Source: a virus (lineage: Duplodnaviria; Caudoviricetes). Taken from it: DNA of 64,000 nt. Positions 39,194-62,491 of this stretch are shown here, piece after piece (the stretch's first letter is position 1; each line of letters begins with the position of its first letter). The stretch is taken from positions 32,001 through 96,000 of IMG/VR virus record IMGVR_UViG_3300028588_000015. One strand, written 5' to 3'. The notes under the pieces are model-generated. The model was not told where the DNA came from. It did no database searches and was given only the letters and a program-made list of their open reading frames with translations. A program made the position numbers and the translations under genes.

Positions 39194-39721
39194 ATGATTG
39201 ACATGCTCAATCAAGAAAAGCTTTTGGTGGCATTGAATGCTTTGAATTCTCCTCCAGAGCCACTTACGCTGGACAGTGTGACGTTCATGCCACCCGTGCC
39301 CTATATTGGCGCAGACCCATGCAATACCAAGATCAGTGTTGTCGCAAAGCCTGCAAAAGGTTATTCGAGTACGCTAGATTTTTATTACCATCGCATTAGT
39401 TTGACGGAAATGGGTAAGCTGGAGTTTTCTTCCATGCAGCCTTACACCGTCGACAATTTGTTATTGATTCTTAATAACATGAACGCGGCGCCGCTTGACA
39501 AGACTGCTGAATTGGCGCTGACCGATTTGGAAGCGATTAAGTTACCGCAGTTTGCCGCGATCGGCGACGCACAAACGCTGGCAATCAAAGCGCACTCTGA
39601 CTCGATTGGTTGGGTCGGTGAAACCGAGATGCTGCTGGCATTCAATTTGCCAGACGTGTCTCGTCTCGAAATATTGTACAATGAAATATTGCCCGCTATC
39701 TTTCCTGCGGCTTCTTCTTAA
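39194..39721 (+). CDS. Jumbo-phage tail-associated domain protein, paralog 1
   Basis: L.ALN...NTKISV.A....GY....F.YHRI.L pattern shared with 54423-54953. Confidence 0.65.
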   Translation: MIDMLNQEKLLVALNALNSPPEPLTLDSVTFMPPVPYIGADPCNTKISVVAKPAKGYSSTLDFYYHRISLTEMGKLEFSSMQPYTVDNLLLILNNMNAAPLDKTAELALTDLEAIKLPQFAAIGDAQTLAIKAHSDSIGWVGETEMLLAFNLPDVSRLEILYNEILPAIFPAASS

Positions 39722-46211: not shown

Positions 46212-49200
46212 ATGAGCGATCCTGTATACAGCACACCAATGGGTGATCCGACTCGTTTGCGTGAGTTGGTGAAGGTGGTAGAAAGTGGCGCCGCCCCGAC
46301 CTGGGTGTATACGCCTGACAGTGGTGCGGATGCACCGGCCTACGGTCAGGGTGGACTTTTCCCAAGTTTTATCAAGGCCGGCACCGATGGCTCCATCGCG
46401 GTGCGCTTCACCGGTTTTCAAAACGCCACCATTGCGTTCATTTCCGACAAGACCAAGCGTTGGGATGGTGCGACGCCGTGGCGGATCGATACGTACCAAG
46501 CGGGGCACGCCTATAAGCCTGTACTGTACGGTAACTATCTGACCGATGGCCCAAATGTCAATGCGGAAGGCGGCGACATCGTACAAATGCGCCGCACCGG
46601 CACGACGGTTTATGCAGAAGTGTCGAAAGACAATGGCGCCACCTGGATCAACATTTACACTTGGCCGAATGTTGATCCGGACATGGATCTGTACGGTGAA
46701 GTGGGCGTGTTCTATTGGATGAGCCGCGCTGAGGGGGTATGGGCCAAAGGCTTGGATTCCCAAGTCAATCCAGTCGCGCCCACGCCCCCTGTGCTTGCTT
46801 CGGCCATTGCCTCAAACGTCGCCGGCATGGGACGGGTGGTGCTCAATTTCAATGAACCCATCGACAAGAGCAAGATTCCGGACAAGTCGGCGTTCAGTGT
46901 ATCAGGGCATACCGTCGCTGCGGCTACGAATATGGCAAGCTTGGCAAACGCTATCGCTCTCGACGTCACGGGTTTGATTGCCTTGGGTGAGGTTGTCACG
47001 GTCACCTACGTTGCGCCAGCCACCAACAGCATTATCGACCTCGACGGCACGCCCGGTAACAGCTTTGGCCCAGTGGTGGCAATCAATAACGTACCGCGCC
47101 CGCTTGGTGTTCGCCGACGCCTCGGTTATGTGCCGCCCGGTATCGCAGAAGGCGGGGTGGCGCCAAATTGGACCTATGCCAATACCGATGGCAATTACAC
47201 GACCTGGGCCAACACTGCCCAGGCACTGAATCGCATGCCAGCAGGTCGCGATGGATCGTTCGAACTTGTCATTGGCAACTACGCCAATGGTTCGTTCATT
47301 GGCCTCACGGCAAGTTCCCAAGTCAACACGCTCCCTGAATATTCTCTGAATATTTACCAGTTCGGCTACCCCTACACACTGTCTGCCGGTAGCGATGCGG
47401 CAGCAGTTGCTGTTTTGGCGGCGCCCGGCGATATCTGTCGTATGCGTCGTTTGGGTAACCGCATTTATGCAGAAGTGTCGAAAGACAATGGCGACAGTTA
47501 CACGGTGGTTGGCACCTGGTCGAACACACCCCAAGTTGATCTGTACGGCGAAGTTTCGTTGGCCTTCAATACGAACATCAGTGCAGTTTATAGCACTGGT
47601 TTCGTGGCAGCGACGGCTTACGACGTGTTTGTCGATAAAGCCCGAGACTTGGATCTGCGCGGAAAAAGCTGGACAGCAGAACAAGTCAGTTATCTGAACA
47701 CTTCGGTTGCCACCTTGGCGCCGGATGGCAGTGGCGGGTTGTACAAGCAATCCAATGCAGCCACCCTCGGTCTGGCGTGGACGCAGCGTAACGAGGACGC
47801 TGGTTCGGCGGTTTTCTTCACGCACGATGGCGGTAGTTACGCTGCCATTCCGCAATTGGTGGTGGCCAGCAACTTGCTGGAAACTTATACCGACGGTATC
47901 CGATGCTCGTTCACTGACGGTGGATTCTTGCTGGAAGAAATCACCAATGGTGCCGTAGGCGCCATGGTTTCCAATACGCTCGCCTTGGTGGCGGGCGAAA
48001 AGTATTGTTTGGAAATTGGCCAAGCCGATACGGTCAGTGACAAAGATTTTGTTTTGCGTATCAGCACCGTGGTCGCAGGTGAGCGCGGTTTGCTGGTGGC
48101 ATACGCCTTGCTCAATGCGCGAAACGCTCATCCGGGTAAGAACGCAGGGCTGCTGTCGAGCGCGGTCGATAGCGCTTTCGATACCGTCACGCGGATCGAA
48201 ACGCTGGCGCAGACAATCCCCGTGCGGATGGTCCCATCAAAGCTGCTCATCGAGGCGGCCTCGAATCAAGTGACGCAAGGATTTTCGCAACGTTTGACGG
48301 TACGGACTGACCAGTCTCTGGCGGCTTTTGAAAGCGTGGAAGTCAATATCACCGACAACGCTGGTGGCCAATTTGATGTGGCCAACTTCACGCTCTCGGG
48401 TACCAACCAGCTCCAGCAGGTTAACTGGCGGCCGAGCAACGTGATCGGTGCCCGTACGCTCACGGCCCAGCAAGTCACCGGTCTTGACGTGGACGACGGT
48501 TCGCTGCATTTCGAAGTGACCGTACCGATTCCGGCCAGCGCACTTGTTTACACCGGCGAAAAGGAAGTCGAACTAGGAAAGACGCTGAAGTTTGTGCTGT
48601 CTACCAACCAGCCACTGCTGGTGGGCGACACCGAAGCCTACACCGTGTCCCTCGTCGGTACTGGCAGTGTGGCACCAATGTCCGGTACCCTGAACAATGG
48701 GGACCTCAGTCAGGAACTGGAATTCACACCGCAAACGGTGGGTGTGACGAAGATTAAGTTCACCCCCATGGGTTCGCCTGTCCTTCCGGCCTTGGAAGTG
48801 CAAGTGACGGTGAAGCCCCGTTCACCGACGTTTGTCAAGGGTATCAACGTCTACGAAGTCGGCATTGGTCACCAGTTTGCAACTGCCAAACAGGCGTCCG
48901 CCTACATCGCCGACAAGAAGTTGGTCGATACCCAGGCAAAAGTCTATTTTGAGTACTACGGTGATCATTATTTTGATACCGACTTTGTTGCGGGTAACAC
49001 CAGCCAAGAGTACAACATCACTCACCGGCCGGCTGCGGGTGAAGGTTACCTGGACAAAGCTACTTCAGGTTTGTTCCATTATCCGGATGCTGGTACTGAG
49101 TTAACCTTCCCGGGTTCGTATGTCACTCTGCAACGCGGCACGGTGATGGAAAACTTCCGGATGAAGTTTGAAAACAATACGACACTGCTGTTCTCGCCCA

Positions 49201-52073
49201 GCAACGGCGCTGGCGGCCAAGCGGCAGACGCATACCTGCGCAATAACCGTATCCTGGTTCAGCGGCCGGGGACCAGTGAAGTGATCCAGTCCGGCGAGTA
49301 CGCCATCAACTGCCACGTACAAAACAATCTGTTCTTGTTGCAAACCCCGGGTATCTATATCAACCTGCGTGATAGCGCGGGTAATGTAACCGGTAACACA
49401 GTTATCGCGCAGGGAGCAGCATTGGGCAGTGCTGTATTTGCCATGAGTGGTAACTTCGATTACAACAATACGAAAGTGCAGAACAACGTCTTTATTGACG
49501 TAGGGGCAGTGCCGTTTAACATCGATGTGAACCGCCCAGCACCTGAACAGGTGTACAGTAACAACTTTACCAACGCAGCGATTAGCGCAGCGGTGGCGCC
49601 AGTGTACACAGTCAATACCGTCGCACCGTTTGTTGCAGATAAAGCAACCGATCTGCGGCCAGTGGTCAACGGTCCTTTGTTCGGAAAAGCGTCTGCGTAT
49701 GCGACTTCGACGATCGACGGCGCCGGCCAAAACCGGGGCTTTGCACCGGACGCAGGTGCATTCCAAGCAATTCCGGCCAGCAAATTGCCCATCGTTAAAT
49801 CGACTGGGCAAACCGTCAGCGGGCAGTATGTCCGTTATACGGTCAGTGTGCTCAACGAGATTGGTTCGTTGACGGCGCGCATGATCCCCGATGCTGTTGC
49901 GCCCGATGGCGCCCAAGAAGTCGGACCTCTGCCGTTTACCGTGAATGGCGGAACAGCGTATGTGGATATTCTGGTACCAAAGGCGGGTCTGTATGCCCCG
50001 GCAGAATTTGTCGCCAGCAATGATGGTGGCGTCGTCAAGTCGTATTCCGACCTGCCGCTGCGTGTGGTACCTTTGAAGTCGAGCGCAACATTCGACGATT
50101 TTGTCGGGGTGGCCGATGCTGTCGTGGCGGCTGGTCGACCGACGTTGCCGTTCTTCGGCACTGTCGTTGACTCCGGTGTAAATATCGTCAAGCCATTGGT
50201 GATCTTGTCAGTTGACAATGGTGACTTTTTCGCCGATGGCAGCGTTACGGTTACCGCAAGTGTTGCCAGCCCGATCGGGGTCGACCGGGTTGAACTTCTG
50301 CGTAACGGCGTGAAAGTCGACACGAAAACGCAGGCACCGTACGCGCTCACCCAGAACTTGACGCGCGCTGATAACGGTACTGTCGTCTACAGTGCCAAAG
50401 CGTACGACACCCAAGGTAACTTTACGGTAAGTGAAAACTTCCCAATCTATGTGAGGATACCCGCCGCTGGTGCCACGGTACCCACGGTCACGAGCATCGC
50501 ACTTGTCCCACCGAGTTACGATGGCGATGTGGCGCATCTTGAGATTAAGTTCTCGGAAGCGATGAATACCGCGCGTGAATTCGATTACAGCGGTGTTTGG
50601 AACTTCGGTATCGATGCTCACTTTACCACCGGCTTGACTGCATTCACGGATGCGACGACGCTGCGGATGAATTACGAATACGTGGCCCCCGTGTTGCCCG
50701 GGGAGCAGGCGTATTTCAGCTACCGTAAGGATTTTCTGCACGGCTGGCGTAGTGCGGCTGGGGTGTTGGTGGAATCGTTCGATGGGTTCCCTGTCGTAAA
50801 TAATCTGCCTGAACAAGGATCGCCCGGTGCGTATGAAACATTCACCAATGTGGCCGATGGGGCGAACGTGGCCAGTGTCGGTTGGGATGGCGGAGCGGAA
50901 GATACGCAACAAGTGTGGCATGCTTCTACGCAACTGGTGCGCGCGGCAGGCGCAGGTGGCGCGTATCCGGCCACCTCGGGACAAATCTTCGCCAGCTTCC
51001 GTCGGAAAGGACATGTTGCGCCTGGATGGGGGTATCGCGATGGCACCGGTGTGGCAGCGTTCTTTAAGTTAACTGCCGCTGGTCAGTCGCCTTACGGCAT
51101 CGCGATCATGTGTGACGATGGCAATGACGGCATCAGTAGTTTCGGCCTGGTTGCAGTGCGGGTTGAGGTGACGCCGGACGGCACGCTGCAATTCCGTCAC
51201 GCTAACAATCGTCGGCCGCCGCTCGCTTACCCGCCGAAAACCGGCGCAGCGCTCGATGTACTGCAAGAGTATGCGCTGGAGCTGGCCCGTGTTACCACGC
51301 AAGCTGAAACAACCTTTGCAATGCGGTTGTGGAAAGCCACCAATGGCGTTCGCACTAGCCTGATCAATTCGGCGTCCTGCGTAGTGAACTATAAGGCCAT
51401 CTTTAACGATGCGCCCATCGCGAAGCTGTATGTCACGGATGTGTCTGCACCACCGGCACTTCTGACCCGCGTGGAAGAGATCACGAATGCGTTCTCGGCG
51501 CGCGAAGTGGTGTCGCTGCTTCCTACCGGTAACCGCTCCACCTTGACCTCCATCCGTAACATTGTTGCGACCGGTTCCGGTGCTGACATGAGTTACGCGG
51601 GTAACGGCGCGGCGCTGTCGAGCCGGCCCGGCGGTATTTTCGCCATGCGTTTCTTAAATGTAGCGCAGCAATCGGGTATTTTTGCAGATGGCGGCGTATC
51701 GGCAGTAGTGGGTGCGGTAGTGGATAACATCTACCTGGGCGCATTCATCACGCCGTCGGCTGGTGTGTTCCCAACCGAACCTGTGGCCGCAGATAAGATG
51801 CACCTCGCTATCTGCGCGCCTGCCATCGGGCAAGCGTACCAGATTTACACGGAAGGCCGGAATCGTTTGCCCACTAAAAAGATGTTGGTGGCAGAGGGTG
51901 ACGTCATGCGTGTGCGTACTTGCGGTCTGGAGGTCTTCTTTGAAGTGAAGAAGAATGATGTCTGGACGCGCATCTTCCGTATCCGCAATGCAGCAGGTGG
52001 TCTGACCGACTATTACACTGCGGCGCAGTTGTTGTTGCCCGGTAATTCGGCAGTATCGGCGATTTACCAGTAA
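46212..52073 (+). CDS. Giant multidomain adhesin/tail fibre (lectin-like repeats, SwmB-like, Ig-like, beta-helix)
   Basis: 1953 aa; repeated MRR.G..YAEVSKDNG..W domain, two SwmB-like modules, a Big_7-like module, and a beta-helix from GIGHQFAT to DGAGQNRGFAPDAGAFQ. Confidence 0.75.
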   Translation: MSDPVYSTPMGDPTRLRELVKVVESGAAPTWVYTPDSGADAPAYGQGGLFPSFIKAGTDGSIAVRFTGFQNATIAFISDKTKRWDGATPWRIDTYQAGHAYKPVLYGNYLTDGPNVNAEGGDIVQMRRTGTTVYAEVSKDNGATWINIYTWPNVDPDMDLYGEVGVFYWMSRAEGVWAKGLDSQVNPVAPTPPVLASAIASNVAGMGRVVLNFNEPIDKSKIPDKSAFSVSGHTVAAATNMASLANAIALDVTGLIALGEVVTVTYVAPATNSIIDLDGTPGNSFGPVVAINNVPRPLGVRRRLGYVPPGIAEGGVAPNWTYANTDGNYTTWANTAQALNRMPAGRDGSFELVIGNYANGSFIGLTASSQVNTLPEYSLNIYQFGYPYTLSAGSDAAAVAVLAAPGDICRMRRLGNRIYAEVSKDNGDSYTVVGTWSNTPQVDLYGEVSLAFNTNISAVYSTGFVAATAYDVFVDKARDLDLRGKSWTAEQVSYLNTSVATLAPDGSGGLYKQSNAATLGLAWTQRNEDAGSAVFFTHDGGSYAAIPQLVVASNLLETYTDGIRCSFTDGGFLLEEITNGAVGAMVSNTLALVAGEKYCLEIGQADTVSDKDFVLRISTVVAGERGLLVAYALLNARNAHPGKNAGLLSSAVDSAFDTVTRIETLAQTIPVRMVPSKLLIEAASNQVTQGFSQRLTVRTDQSLAAFESVEVNITDNAGGQFDVANFTLSGTNQLQQVNWRPSNVIGARTLTAQQVTGLDVDDGSLHFEVTVPIPASALVYTGEKEVELGKTLKFVLSTNQPLLVGDTEAYTVSLVGTGSVAPMSGTLNNGDLSQELEFTPQTVGVTKIKFTPMGSPVLPALEVQVTVKPRSPTFVKGINVYEVGIGHQFATAKQASAYIADKKLVDTQAKVYFEYYGDHYFDTDFVAGNTSQEYNITHRPAAGEGYLDKATSGLFHYPDAGTELTFPGSYVTLQRGTVMENFRMKFENNTTLLFSPSNGAGGQAADAYLRNNRILVQRPGTSEVIQSGEYAINCHVQNNLFLLQTPGIYINLRDSAGNVTGNTVIAQGAALGSAVFAMSGNFDYNNTKVQNNVFIDVGAVPFNIDVNRPAPEQVYSNNFTNAAISAAVAPVYTVNTVAPFVADKATDLRPVVNGPLFGKASAYATSTIDGAGQNRGFAPDAGAFQAIPASKLPIVKSTGQTVSGQYVRYTVSVLNEIGSLTARMIPDAVAPDGAQEVGPLPFTVNGGTAYVDILVPKAGLYAPAEFVASNDGGVVKSYSDLPLRVVPLKSSATFDDFVGVADAVVAAGRPTLPFFGTVVDSGVNIVKPLVILSVDNGDFFADGSVTVTASVASPIGVDRVELLRNGVKVDTKTQAPYALTQNLTRADNGTVVYSAKAYDTQGNFTVSENFPIYVRIPAAGATVPTVTSIALVPPSYDGDVAHLEIKFSEAMNTAREFDYSGVWNFGIDAHFTTGLTAFTDATTLRMNYEYVAPVLPGEQAYFSYRKDFLHGWRSAAGVLVESFDGFPVVNNLPEQGSPGAYETFTNVADGANVASVGWDGGAEDTQQVWHASTQLVRAAGAGGAYPATSGQIFASFRRKGHVAPGWGYRDGTGVAAFFKLTAAGQSPYGIAIMCDDGNDGISSFGLVAVRVEVTPDGTLQFRHANNRRPPLAYPPKTGAALDVLQEYALELARVTTQAETTFAMRLWKATNGVRTSLINSASCVVNYKAIFNDAPIAKLYVTDVSAPPALLTRVEEITNAFSAREVVSLLPTGNRSTLTSIRNIVATGSGADMSYAGNGAALSSRPGGIFAMRFLNVAQQSGIFADGGVSAVVGAVVDNIYLGAFITPSAGVFPTEPVAADKMHLAICAPAIGQAYQIYTEGRNRLPTKKMLVAEGDVMRVRTCGLEVFFEVKKNDVWTRIFRIRNAAGGLTDYYTAAQLLLPGNSAVSAIYQ
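46609..47493 (+). repeat. 30-nt perfect direct repeat (46609-46638 and 47464-47493)
   Basis: TTTATGCAGAAGTGTCGAAAGACAATGGCG occurs twice, 855 nt apart (in frame). Confidence 0.9.
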
Positions 52074-52082
52074 CTTGAAGTA

Positions 52083-52123
52083 ACCGCATAAAGGCCGGCC
52101 ATAGAGGCCGGCCTTTATGCGGT
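52083..52123. terminator. 18-bp perfect hairpin terminator ACCGCATAAAGGCCGGCC/GGCCGGCCTTTATGCGGT
   Basis: Perfect inverted repeat with a 5-nt loop after the adhesin stop codon. Confidence 0.8.
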
Positions 52124-52140
52124 AATGGTTAGATTCAAAC

Positions 52141-52160
52141 AAAATATGGCCACATATTCT
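52141..52160 (+). promoter_or_regulatory. Putative phage promoter motif, copy 2
   Basis: AAAATATGGCCACATATTCT, nearly identical to 6377-6397. Confidence 0.5.
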
Positions 52161-52215
52161 CCGTGTAGCATGAAGCACTATTGATGCTTCGACTACATTC
52201 ATTAGTTAGGAGGAG

Positions 52216-53337
52216 ATGGACATGAGTATCAAACAAACTATTGGACACCGTATTTCGATCCTGCGCACGCTCTTGATTTTGTGCGTTGTATTTCTTCACA
52301 CCGTACTTGCGCCGAACATCCTGAAGGTGGATTTGACCGATTTTCAAACTGTCTTATCCTGCATCTTTCAAGACCGCTTAGGGCGTTTTGCAGTGCCGAC
52401 CCTCACGATGATTTCGGCGTATCTGTTGTTCGGTGCGAATCTGGACCAAGCACCGGGTAAGCTCTATAAGAAGAAATTTGCAACGCTTGTGGTGCCGTTT
52501 TTCTTCTTCAATGTTTTGTACTTCGCTGTTGTGTATGCGGTGGCGACTGTAACGGGCATTGGTAGCTTGCAAGAGGTGGTCCATAAAAACCACGAACAGA
52601 TCATCAACGCATTAACCGGATACAACGGTATGCCACTCAATGGTGCCACGCATTTTCTGCGTGATTTGTTCGTACTGGTGCTGTTGACGCCGGTGTTCAG
52701 TTTCTTTCTGCGCCGCGCCCCGTTGGTTGGTTGCTTCCTTATTGGCTTGGTGTTTTTAACCAACATGGATGGTAACTTGATCCAGCGCAATACCATGGCA
52801 GTAATGTTCTATCTTGGCGGCTGGTGTGCGGTCAGCAAAACTGATGTCACGATACTGGACAAGCATGCGGCCTTGGCGTGTGTTATCCTGCTGTTGGCCT
52901 GCACACTGTCGGTGTTCCTGCGCATCGACAACCGGATGATTTATCTGCTCTCGCCTTTCTTGGTCTGGAGTGCAGCGTCGAAACTGGTTGGCACCGCGCT
53001 GGGTAACTGGGCGGCTAAAAACAGCAAATACAGCTTTTTTGTGTTTCTTGCCCATGCACCGATGCTGCACGTTTTGGACTTGCTGCACGTCAATTCGATT
53101 GCACCAAAACTGCCATTGGTTTCTTCTGCCATCGAAACTGCGGTTGTTTTTATCGTGCTGGCAGCAGTCTACGATATCGCAGCAAAACGTATGCCTTCAT
53201 TGTTTAACATCATGATCGGCGCACGTGTTAAAACCGTGGTCATCGCGGATCGTCGCCGTCAGCCACGTCCCGATGGTGCCCCGGTATTTTCCCCAGAATA
53301 CCGGACGTCGTTCATTTCCAATCTTTCTTTTCGTTAA
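52216..53337 (+). CDS. Acyltransferase family 3 (OafA/ExoH-like) integral membrane protein
   Basis: ILRTLLILCVVFLH, FAVPTLTMISAYLLF, KKKFATLVVPF, HFLRDLF and SFFVFLAH motifs; about 10 hydrophobic segments; AGGAGG RBS. Confidence 0.88.
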   Translation: MDMSIKQTIGHRISILRTLLILCVVFLHTVLAPNILKVDLTDFQTVLSCIFQDRLGRFAVPTLTMISAYLLFGANLDQAPGKLYKKKFATLVVPFFFFNVLYFAVVYAVATVTGIGSLQEVVHKNHEQIINALTGYNGMPLNGATHFLRDLFVLVLLTPVFSFFLRRAPLVGCFLIGLVFLTNMDGNLIQRNTMAVMFYLGGWCAVSKTDVTILDKHAALACVILLLACTLSVFLRIDNRMIYLLSPFLVWSAASKLVGTALGNWAAKNSKYSFFVFLAHAPMLHVLDLLHVNSIAPKLPLVSSAIETAVVFIVLAAVYDIAAKRMPSLFNIMIGARVKTVVIADRRRQPRPDGAPVFSPEYRTSFISNLSFR

Positions 53338-53483
53338 GGAGAATACCGTGAAAAAATGACCGCATAGCAATTGTCAGTTATTGCTTTAGTGTAAATTTTA
53401 ACTGACGTTTGTCTATAGTGTGGATGTATTCAACCGCCTGGTTGAGTACACTCTACTCCCTTCACCAGAACTAGGAGCTTTCC

Positions 53484-53942
53484 ATGCAAAAATCGCGCAC
53501 TCTGCGAGCGCGTACCTTCGTGGCCCTCGCCATGATTGCCGCGCTCGCGTTCTTCACCCATTCGCCGCCAGCCCAATCGACCAGCTCCGGCGCCGAGACC
53601 GTGAAATCCATCTACCCGACCCAGACCGAAGGTGCCGGCATCGCCGCCACCAAGATCGACATCGCACCGGCCGCGGCCGTGGCTGATCGCGCCGTGCCCC
53701 GAACGCCGGCCGCGAACATCGATCTGGAAAAAATGCTGACCTCGACCGACACCCTGGCCATCGTCTCGGGCGCCGAACCGGCCGCCGCGTTCGACTCCCG
53801 ATTGCGGGGCTCGACCAAGAGCGAATTGACCATGTACACCGACCTGTCGACCAACAGCATCCACAGCCACGGCGCCGGCGGTACGGAACCGGGCGGGCGA
53901 TTGCGCCGCTCGATCCTGCTGACCCGTACCGACCTGACCTGA
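53484..53942 (+). CDS. Putative secreted or membrane-anchored small protein
   Basis: AGGAG RBS; signal-peptide-like MQKSRTLRARTFVALAMIAALAFF; C-ending codon bias like the highly expressed head genes. Confidence 0.65.
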   Translation: MQKSRTLRARTFVALAMIAALAFFTHSPPAQSTSSGAETVKSIYPTQTEGAGIAATKIDIAPAAAVADRAVPRTPAANIDLEKMLTSTDTLAIVSGAEPAAAFDSRLRGSTKSELTMYTDLSTNSIHSHGAGGTEPGGRLRRSILLTRTDLT

Positions 53943-53944
53943 CC

Positions 53945-54300
53945 TGCCGCCGGCCTGGGCCGCCGCGACGCCCGCGAGAGGGTTGCTCCCGGCTGTTCCA
54001 TTGCCACAAGTCCCTGTCCGCTGCTGTGGACAGGGCACCTTTCCTGGACCTCTGAAATAGGCCAGGTTCGACCGAACGCAGATGCCTTCTCGGGCTTGCG
54101 AGCCCCTGAACTGGGCGCTGCCGGTCAACTCGCGCAGCAGGCCGCGGCCGATCGGCGGAATCAATGTCGATGCGGTATCGCCGCCTACTGCGCGCGCTTC
54201 TCGACCAAATCCACTGTGACGGGACACAGTTCACCACCGAATCGGATTAGCTACCCGGTTCATAACGACAACCACTGAGGGTGATAGCCAAATCATGCCT
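53945..54300 (+). ncRNA. Candidate structured non-coding RNA or long structured 3-prime UTR
   Basis: About 350 GC-rich nt with no credible ORF and at least six consecutive helices, ending at a terminator; no known family recognised. Confidence 0.35.
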
Positions 54301-54320
54301 CACGGGTTTTTGGAAACCAA

Positions 54321-54369
54321 ATAAAGGCCGAGAGACTACGCGTACATAGTCTCTCGGCCTTTATGCCGC
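54321..54369. terminator. 18-bp hairpin terminator plus TATGCCGC
   Basis: ATAAAGGCCGAGAGACTA/TAGTCTCTCGGCCTTTAT. Confidence 0.8.
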
Positions 54370-54422
54370 TTACCTATCCTATGTTAATTTACTCACCCTT
54401 TGCCTGGATAGATAGGTGCCCC

Positions 54423-54953
54423 ATGTTTGTTTCTGATTTCACCAAATCCCCTGAAGAAGTGGTGATCGACCTCATCAACTTCGACAATGGCAAGAACTTC
54501 ACACCGGCGACCTTGCGGATCGTAGATGTGCCGCTTGCTATCCCCAAATCCCCCCCGATTTTCCGCAACACCGAAATTGTGGTGACCGCCCCTGTCGCGG
54601 TAAAGAAGCGCGGTCAAGCGCGCCTCTGGTATAACCGCATTGATCTCAACACGGTGCCCGCCAATCGCAGCACGGTCTTTGAAACGCCCACAAAAATTAC
54701 CAAACTGAGCGAAGTCATCCCGGCCGTCAACGAACGGTATCGGATCAACCTCACGCCCGCTGATTATATCGACGTCCCGATGACAGTTCTGGATTTTGAA
54801 CCGGTGAAAGTGACGATTCAAACTGCACCTCACTCGTTGGTTTACATCGGTTATCTGGAAATCGATGTCGTGGCACTGCCGGTCGATGTACCACCTATCG
54901 GTTCGGTCTTCCTCAACCGCTTCTTGGACATCTTCAAGTACTTCGCCAAATAA
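54423..54953 (+). CDS. Jumbo-phage tail-associated domain protein, paralog 2
   Basis: VIDLINFDN...NTEIVVTA...LWYNRIDL...SLVYIG; same pattern as 39194-39721. Confidence 0.65.
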   Translation: MFVSDFTKSPEEVVIDLINFDNGKNFTPATLRIVDVPLAIPKSPPIFRNTEIVVTAPVAVKKRGQARLWYNRIDLNTVPANRSTVFETPTKITKLSEVIPAVNERYRINLTPADYIDVPMTVLDFEPVKVTIQTAPHSLVYIGYLEIDVVALPVDVPPIGSVFLNRFLDIFKYFAK

Positions 54954-56821: not shown

Positions 56822-58171
56822 ATGCTCGACACCTTTAGCTTTTATTTCACCGCGTATTCTAAAGCGGTGGCCAGTAACCCCATGTTGGCAGGCTTCGCCC
56901 TGTATTTCACGGGCGCACTCACATACCTTGCACGCAATCTCCCCAGGGCACTCTGGGACTGGCTGAGCCATGCGCTCACTACCAGCATGGAGATGAACAA
57001 CAGTGGCTACAGTGCGGAAGAGACCCACTTCAATTCCTTCCTCATCTGGTTCATGCAGTCTCGCTGGTCGAAGTGGAGCCGCAACATTTACAGCGGCGTG
57101 GGTCACACCAACAACACGTGGGGTTCTTTCATCGGCCCAGGCCGTGGGCGCCATTTTTTCTTTCTCAACGGCCGCCTGTTCTGGTTCTATAAACGCTCGG
57201 TGGATTCACAGGGCACCAACAAACAAAAAGAAGAAATCACGATCCACACACTGGGGCGCAAACAACAACCCTTGATCGACTTGATCAATCTCTTTGAAGT
57301 CAAAGAAACCGACGATACCACTGCGGTGTATTGTTACAGTAAAAATTCATGGGATTTGGTGGCGCGCATTCCAAAGCGAGGCTTCGAGACGGTCTGTATT
57401 GATCCGGAAATCAAGAGTCAGCTGATTGAGCGCCTCGACCGGTTCGACCAGAACGAAGCCTGGTACCGCAGTAAAGGTATCCCCTACAAATCGACCAACC
57501 TGCTCTATGGTCCCCCGGGCACCGGTAAAAGTACCATCACCAAAGCGGTGGCGAGTCGGTATAACCGTTCACTCTGTCTTCTCGATTTGAGTGCGATGAG
57601 TAACCGGATGCTGCAAGATGCACTGGCGTCGATGCCGAGTAAGGCAGTGCTGCTACTCGAAGACATCACGGAAGCCACCAATGCCGTAAAGGGCCAAGAC
57701 GGTGGCCGTCGCACCGGCGATCGCCCAAAAGCGGAAACAGACGAAAACGTAACGGTAACGGAAGATGCGCCGGCATTACCTAAAATACCTAGCAGTATCG
57801 ATGAAATGCTGGGTACGGGTTTGACTTTGTCCGGTATCCTTAACGCGCTCGACGGTATCATTCCACTCAACGACGTCATCGTCATGATGACCACCAACCA
57901 CTTCGAAAAGCTGGCAGGATCGCTAATTCGTGGTGGTCGGGTCGATCACAAGTATTACATCGGCTACATGACCAACGACGAAATTCACGAATACGTGGCA
58001 CTCATGTACCCGGGTCAAGCGTACGACCCCACGATCGTTTTCCAAAGAGCGCTCGGCTGCGATATCTTCACTGCCTTCATGGAAAGTCCACACGACCTCA
58101 AGAGCTTCCTCAAGGGAGTGTCTTATCTCCAACATGCGCCATCAAGCGCGGCGAGCGAAGCACTTTCGTAA
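56822..58171 (+). CDS. BCS1-like membrane-anchored AAA ATPase
   Basis: N-terminal TM helix and BCS1_N-like region; WYRSKGIPYK..LLYGPPGTGKS, LLEDI, LTLSGILNALDG and MTTNH...LIRGGRVD. Confidence 0.85.
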   Translation: MLDTFSFYFTAYSKAVASNPMLAGFALYFTGALTYLARNLPRALWDWLSHALTTSMEMNNSGYSAEETHFNSFLIWFMQSRWSKWSRNIYSGVGHTNNTWGSFIGPGRGRHFFFLNGRLFWFYKRSVDSQGTNKQKEEITIHTLGRKQQPLIDLINLFEVKETDDTTAVYCYSKNSWDLVARIPKRGFETVCIDPEIKSQLIERLDRFDQNEAWYRSKGIPYKSTNLLYGPPGTGKSTITKAVASRYNRSLCLLDLSAMSNRMLQDALASMPSKAVLLLEDITEATNAVKGQDGGRRTGDRPKAETDENVTVTEDAPALPKIPSSIDEMLGTGLTLSGILNALDGIIPLNDVIVMMTTNHFEKLAGSLIRGGRVDHKYYIGYMTNDEIHEYVALMYPGQAYDPTIVFQRALGCDIFTAFMESPHDLKSFLKGVSYLQHAPSSAASEALS

Positions 58172-60868: not shown

Positions 60869-62491
60869 ATGAATACCATGCACCAGTACTACGACCTCAT
60901 CCGGAAAGTCATCACCGAAGGTAACATCCGTACCGACCGCACCAACACCGGTACCATTTCGTTATTCGGCCCGCAAATCGAATTCAACCTCGCCGACGGC
61001 TTCCCGCTCGACCCCAGCCGCCAAGTGTTCCTGCGCGGCGATCTGGAAGAACTCTTCTGGATGCTGCGTGGCTCGACTAACAATAACGAACTGACGGCCA
61101 AGAACGTCAACATCTGGACCCAGTGGGCAATCCGCCAAGAGCACGTAGAATACACCCAAGCCGAGCGTCTTGCCATGCTTCGCGAGAAGTTCATGCAAGA
61201 CACCGGCGATGGCGCCGCTGGCCAGACGGTTTATTTGTCAACGATGGCCGAAGCGATCGATATCGACAAGATGCTCGACGGTCACGGTATTCCGAAGGAA
61301 AAATACGCCAAGGAGCAGTTGGCCATGCTCTTCCAGAAGCTAGTGGAAAAGAACGGTTCCAAGGAAATTGCTCTATCCCACTACGACGCGATGTTCAAAG
61401 GCGGTGTGAGCCAAGAGCAGTTCAACACCATCATGAAGAACTACGGCATCCCCGGCGCCCCGAAGATCGGCGCCCTCGGTCCCATTTATGGCGAGCAGTG
61501 GTGTAAGTGGCCTGACCCAGAGAAAGACGAGACCAAGTTCTTTTCAGTACCAGAGCGCGTCCAGATGGCCGAAGATTATCTGGCCAGCGGCGCGGCTGAA
61601 AAGTTCACGCAGGCAGACTTGGACAGCGTCAAGGACCAGTACCAACAATACCTCGATGAGAAAAGTAATGGCGCCACTGGCTCGACGATGGAAGAACTGC
61701 TGCACGATGACATCGATACTTGGGGTATCCCCAACAAGGTCACGCGACGTACCACCCACAACCAAATCGCCAAGCTGATCGAGGACCTAAAGAAGCGACC
61801 CAATTCGCGGCGTCACATTGTCTCGACCTGGAACGTACCCTACCTGCCGGACGAATCGCTGTCGCCCCAGCAGAACATCATGCGTGGTAAAATGGCACTG
61901 GCGCCATGTCACACCCTCTTCCAGTATTACGTGGAAGGACGCGCGTCCATGGAAATGTGTAAGGAACTTACGACAGAGCAACTGGACGAGTACATGCAAT
62001 ATTGCAGAGAAAACGAGCTAGAAGTTCATGCTTTCCAATCGGATCAGCGCGGGTTTATCGACGATCCGAAGTACTGGGAAGTAATTTTCAATTTCGACAA
62101 GAAGAAGTTGGTCAATGACTGGTTCAAAGAACGTGGCATCAAAACCCAGAAGCTGTCCTGCAAGTTGTACCAGCGTTCGTGCGATCTCCTCGTCGGTGGC
62201 GCCTTTAACATTGCCGCCTATGCTGCACAAACCATGATGGTCGCCCAGTGCGTCGACATGGTCCCGGGCCGGTTCATCCATACATTCGGCGACGTCCACA
62301 TCTACAAGGACCACATGTTGCCTAACTCGGATGGCGACTCTGTGTTCACGCAGTTGGAACGTGAAGTGCGCGCGATGCCGGTCCTCTTGATTAACCCGGA
62401 AGTGAAAGACATCTTCGCCTTCAAGTACGAAGACTTCAAGTTGACCGATTATAACCCCCACAAAAAGATCAACTACAAAGTCGCGGTTTAA
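60869..62491 (+). CDS. thyA: Thymidylate synthase with large insertions
   Basis: DRTNTGT, LGPIYGEQW, PNSRRHIV, ALAPCH, YQRSCD...FNIAAY and GDVHIY motifs. Confidence 0.93.
   Translation: MNTMHQYYDLIRKVITEGNIRTDRTNTGTISLFGPQIEFNLADGFPLDPSRQVFLRGDLEELFWMLRGSTNNNELTAKNVNIWTQWAIRQEHVEYTQAERLAMLREKFMQDTGDGAAGQTVYLSTMAEAIDIDKMLDGHGIPKEKYAKEQLAMLFQKLVEKNGSKEIALSHYDAMFKGGVSQEQFNTIMKNYGIPGAPKIGALGPIYGEQWCKWPDPEKDETKFFSVPERVQMAEDYLASGAAEKFTQADLDSVKDQYQQYLDEKSNGATGSTMEELLHDDIDTWGIPNKVTRRTTHNQIAKLIEDLKKRPNSRRHIVSTWNVPYLPDESLSPQQNIMRGKMALAPCHTLFQYYVEGRASMEMCKELTTEQLDEYMQYCRENELEVHAFQSDQRGFIDDPKYWEVIFNFDKKKLVNDWFKERGIKTQKLSCKLYQRSCDLLVGGAFNIAAYAAQTMMVAQCVDMVPGRFIHTFGDVHIYKDHMLPNSDGDSVFTQLEREVRAMPVLLINPEVKDIFAFKYEDFKLTDYNPHKKINYKVAV

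What the first reader, a model, noticed from the sequence alone, without database searches (positions are those of the whole stretch)
52141..53337. Acyltransferase-3 gene domesticated in a lytic jumbo phage
Seen: an intact ~10-TM AT3 protein with its own RBS and a copy of the phage promoter-like motif, insulated from the late adhesin operon by an 18-bp hairpin. Known: AT3 proteins (OafA, Oac, ExoH) acylate O-antigen, EPS or peptidoglycan, and phage-borne examples are mostly from temperate serotype-converting phages. Inference: superinfection exclusion, progeny protection from re-adsorption to lysed debris, or a carrier/pseudolysogenic state.
Basis: partly seen in the sequence, partly recalled or inferred. 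Interest (0 to 1): 0.72.

Follow-up and report, generated by a model that had tools for sequence, protein, structure and literature searches.

The report
Jumbo-phage surface-sugar acyltransferase beside tail fibres
A giant, nucleus-forming, apparently lytic phage of Massilia-like soil bacteria carries an intact membrane enzyme taken from its host that adds acyl groups to surface sugars. The gene has phage-type start and stop signals and is exchanged together with the tail-fibre genes, so it probably masks the phage's own sugar receptor on infected cells; this has not been tested.

Summary
Window 52222-53337 (+) is an intact 371-aa acyltransferase-3 (AT3) gene (PF01757, 93.9 bits). It follows a perfect 18-bp hairpin of the phiKZ terminator type, a copy of a roughly 20-site phage promoter motif, and an AGGAGG ribosome-binding site.

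The genome is a 225.5-kb uncultured nucleus-forming jumbo phage with chimallin, PhuZ and a multisubunit RNA polymerase. No integrase or resolvase was found.

The same promoter motif precedes the chimallin, PhuZ and thymidylate kinase genes, so I predict early expression.

The gene is not a chimera:
- Its codon use is phage-like (GC3 0.59, against 0.81-0.87 in Massilia homologues).
- Five other phage contigs, two of them complete with terminal repeats, carry an AT3 behind the same terminator and promoter signals, next to tail-fibre or adhesin genes.

Best homologues are Massilia genes (62%). Phage copies are scattered among bacterial ones (at least 5 phage/bacterium switches; monophyly rejected, p 8.5e-9).

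In one close phage pair the flanks are 80-97% identical, but the AT3 (35%) and fibre genes (23-48%) are replaced together. One bacterial sister gene lies in a Wzx/Wzy polysaccharide locus.

Most likely function: early acylation of the glycan receptor, giving exclusion or progeny protection. The scan found the same arrangement earlier on other DNA (e1-5335890).

The parts
46212..52073 (+). Last and largest (1953 aa) tail-fibre/adhesin-like gene of the receptor-binding block, directly upstream of the AT3 unit
   Evidence: Big_7 Ig-like domain and SWM repeat. Homologous to the 1979-aa gene that precedes the AT3 in L056 (35% over about 1300 aa).
52083..52123 (+). Intrinsic terminator hairpin of the phiKZ type (GC-rich stem, then TTTATGCGGT)
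   Evidence: 18-nt perfect arms. Energy -38.4 kcal/mol, z -9.0. Fits the phiKZ terminator consensus, a stem-loop followed by YTTATKYYGT, mapped by ONT-cappable-seq (PMC10914365). The same element precedes the AT3 in L057, L056, L076 and L077.
52129..52168 (+). Phage promoter-like motif (A-rich tract, then TAyrGnCACATATnAC), core CACATAT at 52151-52157
   Evidence: Leave-one-out score 27.6 bits, rank 17 of 451,014; shuffled maxima 8.6-16.8. Sister sites precede chimallin, PhuZ, thymidylate kinase and an HslV-like peptidase.
52207..52212 (+). Shine-Dalgarno AGGAGG, 9 nt before ATG 52222
   Evidence: Read from the sequence.
52222..53337 (+). AT3-only membrane O-acyltransferase gene, 371 aa (alternative upstream ATG at 52216)
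   Evidence: PF01757 at 93.9 bits. R15-X10-H26 motif and all 24 invariant columns of the subfamily kept. AF2 pLDDT 86.8. 62% identical to the Massilia sp. 9096 homologue.
53338..53483 (+). Folded spacer between the AT3 gene and the next gene, with no phiKZ-type terminator and no promoter motif
   Evidence: Fold z -5.3. No motif site between 52151 and 58195.
53484..53942 (+). Small (152 aa) gene for a signal-peptide-bearing protein, probably co-transcribed with the AT3 gene
   Evidence: AGGAG ribosome-binding site. Strong third-position GC signal (GC3 0.83) and good codon score. A homologue sits at the same place after the AT3 in L057 (34% identity, E 1e-11). No Pfam, PHROG or NCBIfam match.
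53943..54320 (+). GC-rich stretch without coding periodicity, probably the 3' untranslated tail of the unit
Evidence: No frame-specific GC3 signal and stops in all frames.
54321..54372 (+). Second phiKZ-type terminator hairpin followed by TTTATGCCG; closes the AT3 unit
   Evidence: 18-nt perfect arms. Energy -32.1 kcal/mol, z -8.4. Shares flanks with the first hairpin.
54363..54953 (+). DUF7941 virion structural protein gene, where the conserved backbone resumes (a paralogue lies at 39194-39721)
   Evidence: PF25613, E 4.6e-23. phrog_1037 virion structural protein. 55% identical to its L057 counterpart. Paralogue.

Best explanation
The gene encodes a working AT3-only inner-membrane O-acyltransferase that an ancestor of this phage took from a Massilia-like (Oxalobacteraceae) host.

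It forms its own transcription unit: phiKZ-type terminator, early-class phage promoter, AT3, a small secreted protein, a structured tail, and a second terminator. This unit sits directly behind the tail-fibre/adhesin genes.

Proposed mechanism: the enzyme is made early in infection and inserted into the host inner membrane. It passes an acyl group (acetyl or succinyl, from acyl-CoA) through its pore onto a Wzx/Wzy-type surface polysaccharide (EPS, capsule or O-antigen). That glycan is the one the neighbouring fibres recognise. Acylation masks the receptor on infected cells and their debris. This keeps out later-arriving phages of the same receptor type and reduces wasteful re-adsorption of progeny.

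Shown: an intact gene with the family's catalytic motif; phage signals; conserved position in six phage contigs; joint replacement with the fibre genes; host origin; a polysaccharide-locus context for relatives.

Inferred: expression time, enzyme activity, acyl donor, the acceptor glycan, and the masking effect.
For: Family and integrity:
- PF01757 at 93.9 bits.
- R15-X10-H26 and all 24 invariant subfamily columns are present (motif definition from PMC7448272).
- Confident helical model whose nearest solved fold is human HGSNAT, the known structural relative of AT3 (PMC12423673, listed).

Phage signals:
- Terminator hairpins match the phiKZ consensus (PMC10914365).
- The promoter motif is shared with chimallin, PhuZ and tmk.

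Settled in the phage:
- GC3 is 0.59, against 0.65 +/- 0.08 for the phage and 0.81-0.87 for Massilia copies. The codon score lies within the phage range.

Recurrence:
- An AT3 follows the same terminator and promoter and lies beside fibre genes in G305 and G306 (both with terminal repeats, 100% complete), L076, L077 and L078.

Linked to host range:
- L077 versus L056: downstream genes are 80-97% identical. Nucleotide identity of 81-96% begins 37 nt before the AT3 stop. The AT3 is 35% identical and the fibres 23-48%.

Host origin and glycan link:
- The window gene is sister (100/99) to the Massilia sp. 9096 type, inside a bacterial clade with conserved chromosomal synteny.
- The sister of the L056 gene lies in a Wzx/Wzy/glycosyltransferase locus of M. 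aurea.
- Other relatives lie beside Bac_transf, UDP-glucose dehydrogenase and PEP-CTERM genes.

Lifestyle:
- No integrase or resolvase.
Against:
- The early class is inferred only from a shared motif.
- The RXXR motif needed in Oac and OafA is replaced here by a KxYKKK cluster.
- The closest bacterial homologues (Massilia 9096 type) are not inside an obvious polysaccharide locus, so the acceptor is uncertain.
- A lytic cycle may be too short for newly acylated polymer to cover the cell.
- The nearest cultured chimalliviruses and 80 metagenomic loci of related phages lack the gene, so it is dispensable for the phage type.
- The record is only about 85% complete, so a missed integrase cannot be excluded.
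Confidence: 0.55

Rival explanations
1. Matrix conditioning rather than masking. The enzyme acylates nascent exopolysaccharide so that it becomes more cleavable, less viscous or of lower molecular weight. This would help phage depolymerases or fibres and help progeny escape from Massilia biofilm.
For: The only characterised relative found by sequence is ExoH, the succinoglycan succinyltransferase (24-28% identity over more than 90% of the length; role in PMC9558356). From my own knowledge, succinylation raises the susceptibility of succinoglycan to the ExoK and ExsH glycanases. Relatives lie in EPS loci. The gene abuts the glycan-binding fibre block.
Against: No depolymerase domain was identified by Pfam in the neighbouring fibre genes. 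Joint replacement with the fibres fits masking and conditioning equally well. An early promoter is not obviously needed for a release function.
Confidence: 0.2
2. The enzyme acts on a different envelope glycan (osmoregulated periplasmic glucans, LPS core or peptidoglycan). This would stabilise or remodel the envelope during the long jumbo-phage cycle, or blunt a host defence, and would be unrelated to the phage's receptor.
For: AT3-only enzymes such as MdoC/OpgC act on periplasmic glucans (PMC9558356). The closest Massilia homologues sit among housekeeping and signalling genes, with a GDSL lipase nearby, and not in a polysaccharide locus.
Against: A strain-independent envelope target would not explain why the AT3 diverges and is replaced in step with the fibre genes while the flanks stay 80-97% identical. 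It would also not explain the repeated exchange with different Massilia alleles.
Confidence: 0.12
3. The gene is a passenger without a role for the phage, or an assembly artefact joining host and phage DNA.
For: The genome is a metagenome assembly, and read-level checks could not be run. The gene is absent from the nearest cultured relatives.
Against: The frame is intact and the catalytic motif conserved. Codon use is phage-like and far from Massilia. Phage genes and phage regulatory motifs lie on both sides. The same arrangement occurs in five independent assemblies, including two closed genomes.
Confidence: 0.04

Closest known systems
Oac (OacA) of Shigella phage Sf6 and other serotype-converting phage AT3 O-acetyltransferases (own knowledge; PMC9558356)
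   Same: A phage-borne AT3-only enzyme placed next to the receptor-binding gene. It is expected to acylate the very glycan the phage binds and so block further adsorption.
   Different: Those phages are temperate and express the gene from the prophage. Here the carrier is a nucleus-forming jumbo phage with no integrase found, and the gene has an early-class phage promoter and phiKZ-type terminators. No sequence match to any of 50,697 deposited phages, even at E 5, and no PHROG family match.
ExoH, succinoglycan O-succinyltransferase of Sinorhizobium (pSymB exo cluster)
   Same: An AT3-only protein of similar length acting on a Wzx/Wzy-type exopolysaccharide. It is the only characterised protein reached by sequence (24-28% identity over more than 90% of the length). 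Source databases label several homologues 'ExoH'.
   Different: Identity is too low for orthology. The phage gene is not in an exo cluster, and neither the acyl donor nor the acceptor can be inferred.
Massilia chromosomal AT3 genes (e.g. WP_156116665.1 of Massilia sp. 9096)
   Same: 62% identity over the full length, including the conserved C-terminal RRRxPRPxxAPV(Y/F)S tail. Sister group in the tree with support 100/99.
   Different: Those are bacterial genes with GC3 0.81-0.84 in a conserved chromosomal neighbourhood, and they are themselves uncharacterised.
Surface-polysaccharide gene clusters of jumbo cyanophages (Iyer et al. 2021, PMC7824862, section 3.4.10)
   Same: Jumbo phages carrying host-surface-modifying enzymes, proposed to pre-empt attachment of rival phages.
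   Different: Those are multi-gene sugar-synthesis and glycosyltransferase clusters in T4-like (group 2/3) phages. AT3 enzymes and phiKZ-like phages are not mentioned in that context.

Membership tests
Acyltransferase-3 (AT3, PF01757) | Match to the Pfam model above its gathering score | tested here: met
   93.9 bits against a cut-off of 31, E 1.3e-26, residues 13-302 on model positions 4-304 of 326. The same result came from the genome search.
Acyltransferase-3 (AT3, PF01757) | R/K-X10-H motif in the first membrane helix (OafA R14 and H25, both essential) | tested here: met
   R15 and H26 of the 371-aa protein. H26 is invariant and R15 nearly invariant in 23 aligned homologues. Motif as defined in PMC7448272.
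Acyltransferase-3 (AT3, PF01757) | FFXISG-type motif in helix 2 | tested here: inconclusive
   The protein reads LTMISAY where most homologues have ISGY. The two closest Massilia proteins also have ISA. In OafA the G46A change was tolerated.
Acyltransferase-3 (AT3, PF01757) | RXXR motif between helices 2 and 3 (essential in Oac, OafA and OafB; 'highly but not absolutely conserved') | tested here: not met
   The whole subfamily has a lysine cluster (KLYKKK; K84 and K85 conserved) in place of RXXR. The basic character is kept but the literal motif is absent.
Acyltransferase-3 (AT3, PF01757) | Ten-helix membrane fold of the TmAT type | tested here: met
   AF2 model with pLDDT 86.8 and pTM 0.83, all-helical. 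The best solved matches are human HGSNAT chains (probability up to 0.99, TM 0.40-0.45, E about 0.1), a weak but expected result. No AT3 structure is reachable by sequence.
Acyltransferase-3 (AT3, PF01757) | Acyl-CoA-dependent O-acylation of an extracytoplasmic glycan | not testable with these tools
   Needs expression and chemical analysis of the glycans.
ExoH orthologue (succinoglycan succinyltransferase) | Close sequence relation and position inside an exo-type cluster | tested here: not met
   23.6-28% identity to the AT3 gene in the exoT...exoN region of pSymB. The phage gene lies among phage genes.
Temperate-phage serotype-conversion module (Sf6 type) | AT3-only gene adjacent to the receptor-binding gene | tested here: met
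   The gene lies directly behind the 1953-aa adhesin-like gene. The same adjacency holds in five other phage contigs.
Temperate-phage serotype-conversion module (Sf6 type) | Carrier is a temperate phage with an integrase, and the gene is expressed from the prophage | tested here: not met
   No PF00589 or PF00239 match in the 225.5-kb record. The genome has chimallin, PhuZ and phage multisubunit RNA polymerase. The record is about 85% complete.
Nucleus-forming jumbo phages (Chimalliviridae) | Chimallin shell protein, PhuZ tubulin, multisubunit RNA polymerase, genome over 200 kb | tested here: met
   phrog_4795 (3.2e-63) and phrog_4733 (6.9e-74). phrog_3015 RNA polymerase beta (2e-182). Record length 225,547 bp.
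phiKZ-type intrinsic terminator | GC-rich stem-loop followed by YTTATKYYGT | tested here: met
   GGCCGGCC-loop-GGCCGGCC-TTTATGCGGT at 52083-52123, and ...CGGCC-TTTATGCCGC at 54321-54372. Consensus quoted from PMC10914365. Termination itself was not measured.

The most novel reading that the evidence does not exclude
In a lineage of virulent, nucleus-forming jumbo phages of Massilia, the tail fibres and the enzyme that masks their glycan receptor form one exchangeable host-range cassette. The AT3 is replaced together with the fibres, with alleles drawn repeatedly from (or given to) host Wzx/Wzy polysaccharide loci. It is switched on from an early virion-polymerase-type promoter. This would amount to serotype conversion carried out during a lytic infection rather than by a prophage.
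Probability: 0.4. Interest if true: 0.75.

Novelty: new variant of a known kind. Interest (0 to 1): 0.62.

Why it matters
Receptor-masking acyltransferases are textbook tools of temperate phages. In the library searched, every paper that mentions this Pfam family together with a specific phage concerns prophages or temperate phages.

Finding one as a conserved, early-promoter-driven unit in nucleus-forming jumbo phages with no integration genes suggests that lytic phages also invest in changing the surface of the cell they are about to kill. Possible reasons are fencing off competitors or saving progeny in sticky biofilms.

The joint swapping of fibres and acyltransferase gives a direct, testable rule for pairing a phage receptor-binding protein with its glycan and the modification that blocks it. 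It also points to Massilia as the host of an otherwise unassigned phage group.

Tried and rejected
- Insertion scar: the two flanking hairpins share outer sequence. I rejected a scar reading because the same hairpin plus TTTATGCCG junction occurs at other genes and matches the general phiKZ terminator motif.
- Deposited phages: megablast and tblastn against 50,697 phage records found nothing, even at E 5. PHROGs and NCBIfam gave no match for the AT3.
- Single-protein scans of viral contigs with the AT3, the adhesin C-terminus and the phrog_3248 protein found no close relative, or only one. The alignment-based scan was needed.
- Contigs of 224-247 kb carrying homologues P0003, P0035 and P0048 were checked as possible jumbo phages and turned out to be bacterial.
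- The 1-kb stretch downstream of the AT3 showed no similarity to Massilia loci or to the rest of the genome. The 152-aa protein was not found in four Oxalobacteraceae genomes.
- No SGNH/GDSL partner is encoded in the phage record.
- The BFVD fold search gave one marginal match only.
- The first metagenome scan with the AAA protein found nothing. The alignment scan gave 80 loci, none with this AT3.
- One call failed on a wrong 'of' argument.
- The second AU test (window plus L056) did not finish and is not used.

Full report
**What is there.**
The window is bases 32,001-96,000 of a 225,547-bp linear IMG/VR virus record, estimated to be about 85% complete. It is a nucleus-forming jumbo phage:
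- RNA polymerase beta subunit phrog_3015 (2e-182), DNA polymerase phrog_3011, internal head proteins and virion proteins lie in the window.
- Chimallin (phrog_4795, 3.2e-63) and PhuZ tubulin (phrog_4733, 6.9e-74) lie upstream of it.
- The nearest cultured phage is Burkholderia phage FLC9, at only 47% DNA polymerase identity.
- No tyrosine integrase or serine recombinase was found.

**The gene.**
ORF 52216..53337 (+) is open and matches PF01757 at 93.9 bits, against a cut-off of 31. The likely start is ATG 52222, giving 371 aa:
- AGGAGG at 52207-52212 then lies 9 nt upstream.
- The N-terminus aligns with the homologues.
- The database gene call is also 371 aa.

The protein keeps all 24 invariant columns of a 23-sequence alignment, including the R15-X10-H26 pair. 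That pair corresponds to the essential R14 and H25 of OafA (PMC7448272). The RXXR motif is replaced in the whole subfamily by a KLYKKK cluster, and ISG reads ISA.

The AlphaFold2 model is confident (pLDDT 86.8, pTM 0.83) and all-helical. Its best solved neighbours are human HGSNAT chains, the published structural relative of AT3 proteins. The match is weak: TM 0.40-0.45, E about 0.1 (PMC12423673).

**Signals.**
- *Upstream terminator.* The perfect 18-bp hairpin at 52083-52123 (-38.4 kcal/mol, z -9.0) reads GC-stem, loop, GC-stem, TTTATGCGGT. This matches the terminator consensus mapped experimentally in phiKZ, a stem-loop followed by YTTATKYYGT (PMC10914365).
- *Downstream terminator.* A second hairpin of the same kind at 54321-54372 closes the unit.
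- *Promoter motif.* Between the first hairpin and the gene lies a motif: an A-rich tract, then TAyrGnCACATATnAC. It occurs about 20 times in the genome, 19 times on the + strand, usually 40-90 nt before an ATG with a ribosome-binding site.
- *Significance of the motif.* Scored with a matrix built without it, the AT3 copy reaches 27.6 bits and ranks 17th of 451,014 positions. Shuffled genomes peak at 8.6-16.8.
- *Temporal class.* The genes behind sister sites include chimallin, PhuZ, thymidylate kinase and an HslV-like peptidase. No site was found inside the structural block at 28.5-52 kb. I therefore read the motif as the early, or at least non-late, promoter class. This is an inference from gene content; timing was not measured.
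- *Extent of the unit.* No such promoter or terminator lies between the AT3 gene and the next gene at 53484-53942. That gene encodes a 152-aa protein with a signal-peptide-like start, so the two are probably co-transcribed. The 152-aa gene has a positional homologue behind the AT3 of a related phage (34% identity, E 1e-11). It matches no known family.

**Not a chimera.**
- The AT3 gene has GC3 of 0.59. Long phage ORFs average 0.65 +/- 0.08, and Massilia homologues have 0.81-0.87. Its codon score (0.26) lies within the phage range of 0.34 +/- 0.15.
- Phage genes and phage regulatory motifs flank it on both sides.
- Five other phage contigs carry an AT3 of this subfamily beside tail-fibre or adhesin genes. 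All five show the terminator hairpin upstream, and most also show the TTTATGCCG flank and a CACATAT-type motif (diverged in L056 and L077; L078 not inspected directly).
  - G305/L056: 271 kb, terminal repeats, 100% complete.
  - G306/L057: 224 kb, terminal repeats, 100% complete.
  - L077: a 184-kb contig.
  - L076 and L078: 43% GC.

- G306 shares 56% chimallin identity with this phage and G305 only 25%. The arrangement therefore spans deeply split lineages.
- The gene is not general to the group. Five nearest cultured relatives, two other related uncultured genomes, and 80 metagenomic loci around a conserved AAA gene lack it.

**Origin and history.**
- *Distribution.* The best homologues are bacterial. 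Massilia sp. 9096 (WP_156116665.1 cluster) is 62% identical, and nearly all named relatives are Massilia or Herbaspirillum. The subfamily is patchy, found in 15 of 301 sampled genomes of that family.
- *Placement of the window gene.* In a careful maximum-likelihood tree it is sister (support 100/99) to the Massilia 9096 type. It sits inside a bacterial clade whose members share one chromosomal neighbourhood: GDSL lipase, Sel1, DUF2807, two M16 peptidases, AT3, histidine kinases. This points to transfer from bacterium to phage.
- *Other phage copies.* The L056 gene is sister (100/99) to a low-GC copy in Massilia aurea. L057, L076/L078 and L077 fall elsewhere in the tree.
- *Number of switches.* Seven phage and 30 bacterial sequences need at least five label changes. 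A tree forcing the three syntenic phage genes together is rejected (delta lnL 340, p-AU 8.5e-9).
- *Caveat.* Many unnamed metagenomic sequences in the tree could be from either phage or bacterium.

**Link to host range.**
- L077 and L056 are close relatives. Genes downstream of the AT3 are 80-97% identical in protein. Nucleotide identity of 81-96% starts 37 nt before the AT3 stop codon.
- Upstream of that point there is no nucleotide similarity. The AT3 proteins are 35% identical and the fibre proteins 23-48%.
- In the L078/L076 pair the flanks are mostly 83-100% identical, the AT3 80% and the large fibre 59%.
- For the window phage and G306 the pattern is similar: core genes 49-56%, AT3 34%, fibres 27-40%.
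- The acyltransferase thus belongs to the block that is replaced when receptor specificity changes.

**Likely acceptor.**
- The M. aurea sister gene lies between glycosyltransferases, a Wzx-type flippase, a Wzy polymerase, an aminotransferase and UDP-glucose dehydrogenase.
- Other relatives sit next to Bac_transf, UDP-glucose dehydrogenase, PEP-CTERM proteins and sigma-54 regulators.
- The only characterised protein reachable by sequence is ExoH of the pSymB exo cluster, at 24-28% identity (PMC9558356).
- Together these point to a Wzx/Wzy-type surface polysaccharide. They do not say whether the acyl group is acetyl or succinyl.

**Explanation and rivals.**
- *Preferred reading (0.55).* Early receptor masking: the enzyme acylates the glycan that the adjacent fibres bind. 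This excludes later phages and spares progeny from sticking to debris.
- *Rival 1 (0.2).* Matrix conditioning: acylation makes the exopolysaccharide easier to cut or less viscous.
- *Rival 2 (0.12).* A receptor-unrelated envelope target. This fits poorly with the joint swapping of AT3 and fibres.
- *Rival 3 (0.04).* A passenger gene or an assembly artefact, which is largely excluded.

**Comparison with what is known.**
- Adjacency of a receptor-binding gene and an AT3-only acetylase is classic for temperate serotype-converting phages such as Sf6 (own knowledge; PMC9558356).
- Jumbo phages with surface-modifying gene clusters have been discussed for T4-like cyanophages, but AT3 enzymes are not mentioned and phiKZ-like phages are not named in that context (PMC7824862).
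- In the paper library, every paper that links this Pfam family to a specific phage concerns a temperate phage or prophage.
- I rate the finding as a new variant of a known kind.
- The scan had already noted the same arrangement on another genome (e1-5335890). My analysis was done independently on this window and agrees with it.

**Limits.**
- An earlier unverified note says that the 3' tail of this unit appears as RNA in a leaf-litter sample (e1-5364555).
- One bacterial genome used (G085, and locus L040 in the tree) is unpublished. No claim here depends on it.

Noticed in passing
window 53484-53942: A small (152 aa) protein with a signal-peptide-like start and unusually high GC3 (0.83, against 0.65 for the phage). 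It follows the AT3 here and in G306 (L057:11164-11637, 34% identity), with a shared RLRGS...SHG.G..PGGR end. It matches no known family. It is absent after the AT3 in L056, L077, L076 and L078.
   Followed up: partly
window 53943-54320: A GC-rich (about 0.65) stretch with no coding periodicity between the small gene and the terminator.
   Followed up: no
L056:11064 / L077:9067: A sharp recombination boundary between two close jumbo phages lies 37 nt before the AT3 stop codon. Everything upstream (AT3 and at least 9 kb of fibre genes) is unrelated at the DNA level, and everything downstream is 81-96% identical.
   Followed up: yes
L011:8001-9080 (= L059:10001-11128), Massilia aurea strain 186: This bacterial AT3 copy has phage-like low GC (0.49, GC3 0.58) in a 62% GC locus, inside a Wzx/Wzy polysaccharide cluster. 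It is the sister of the AT3 of jumbo phage G305. The direction of transfer is open.
   Followed up: partly
whole genome; for example window 6388, 58195 and genome 17877, 7493: The roughly 20-site promoter motif (A-rich tract, then TAyrGnCACATATnAC) is often placed about 10 nt after a hairpin plus TTTATGCCG terminator. It precedes chimallin, PhuZ, tmk and an HslV-like peptidase. Related phages with 43-53% GC share it.
   Followed up: partly
window 60869-62491: The thymidylate synthase homologue is 540 aa and covers positions 31-308 of a 335-position profile, so it carries roughly 230 extra residues. G306 has a 506-aa counterpart (54% identity). The nature of the insert was not examined.
   Followed up: no
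window 56822-58171: An AAA ATPase with a BCS1_N domain, conserved in many jumbo-phage contigs (354 metagenomic relatives found).
   Followed up: partly
window 53222-53337 (protein residues about 334-371): The C-terminal tail motif RRRxPRPxxAPV(Y/F)SxxxR is shared by the phage AT3, the L077 phage AT3 (P0027) and a subset of Massilia homologues. The model has low confidence there, and the function is unknown.
   Followed up: no
window 39194-39721 and 54363-54953: Two paralogous DUF7941 virion-protein genes bracket the whole fibre-plus-AT3 block.
   Followed up: partly
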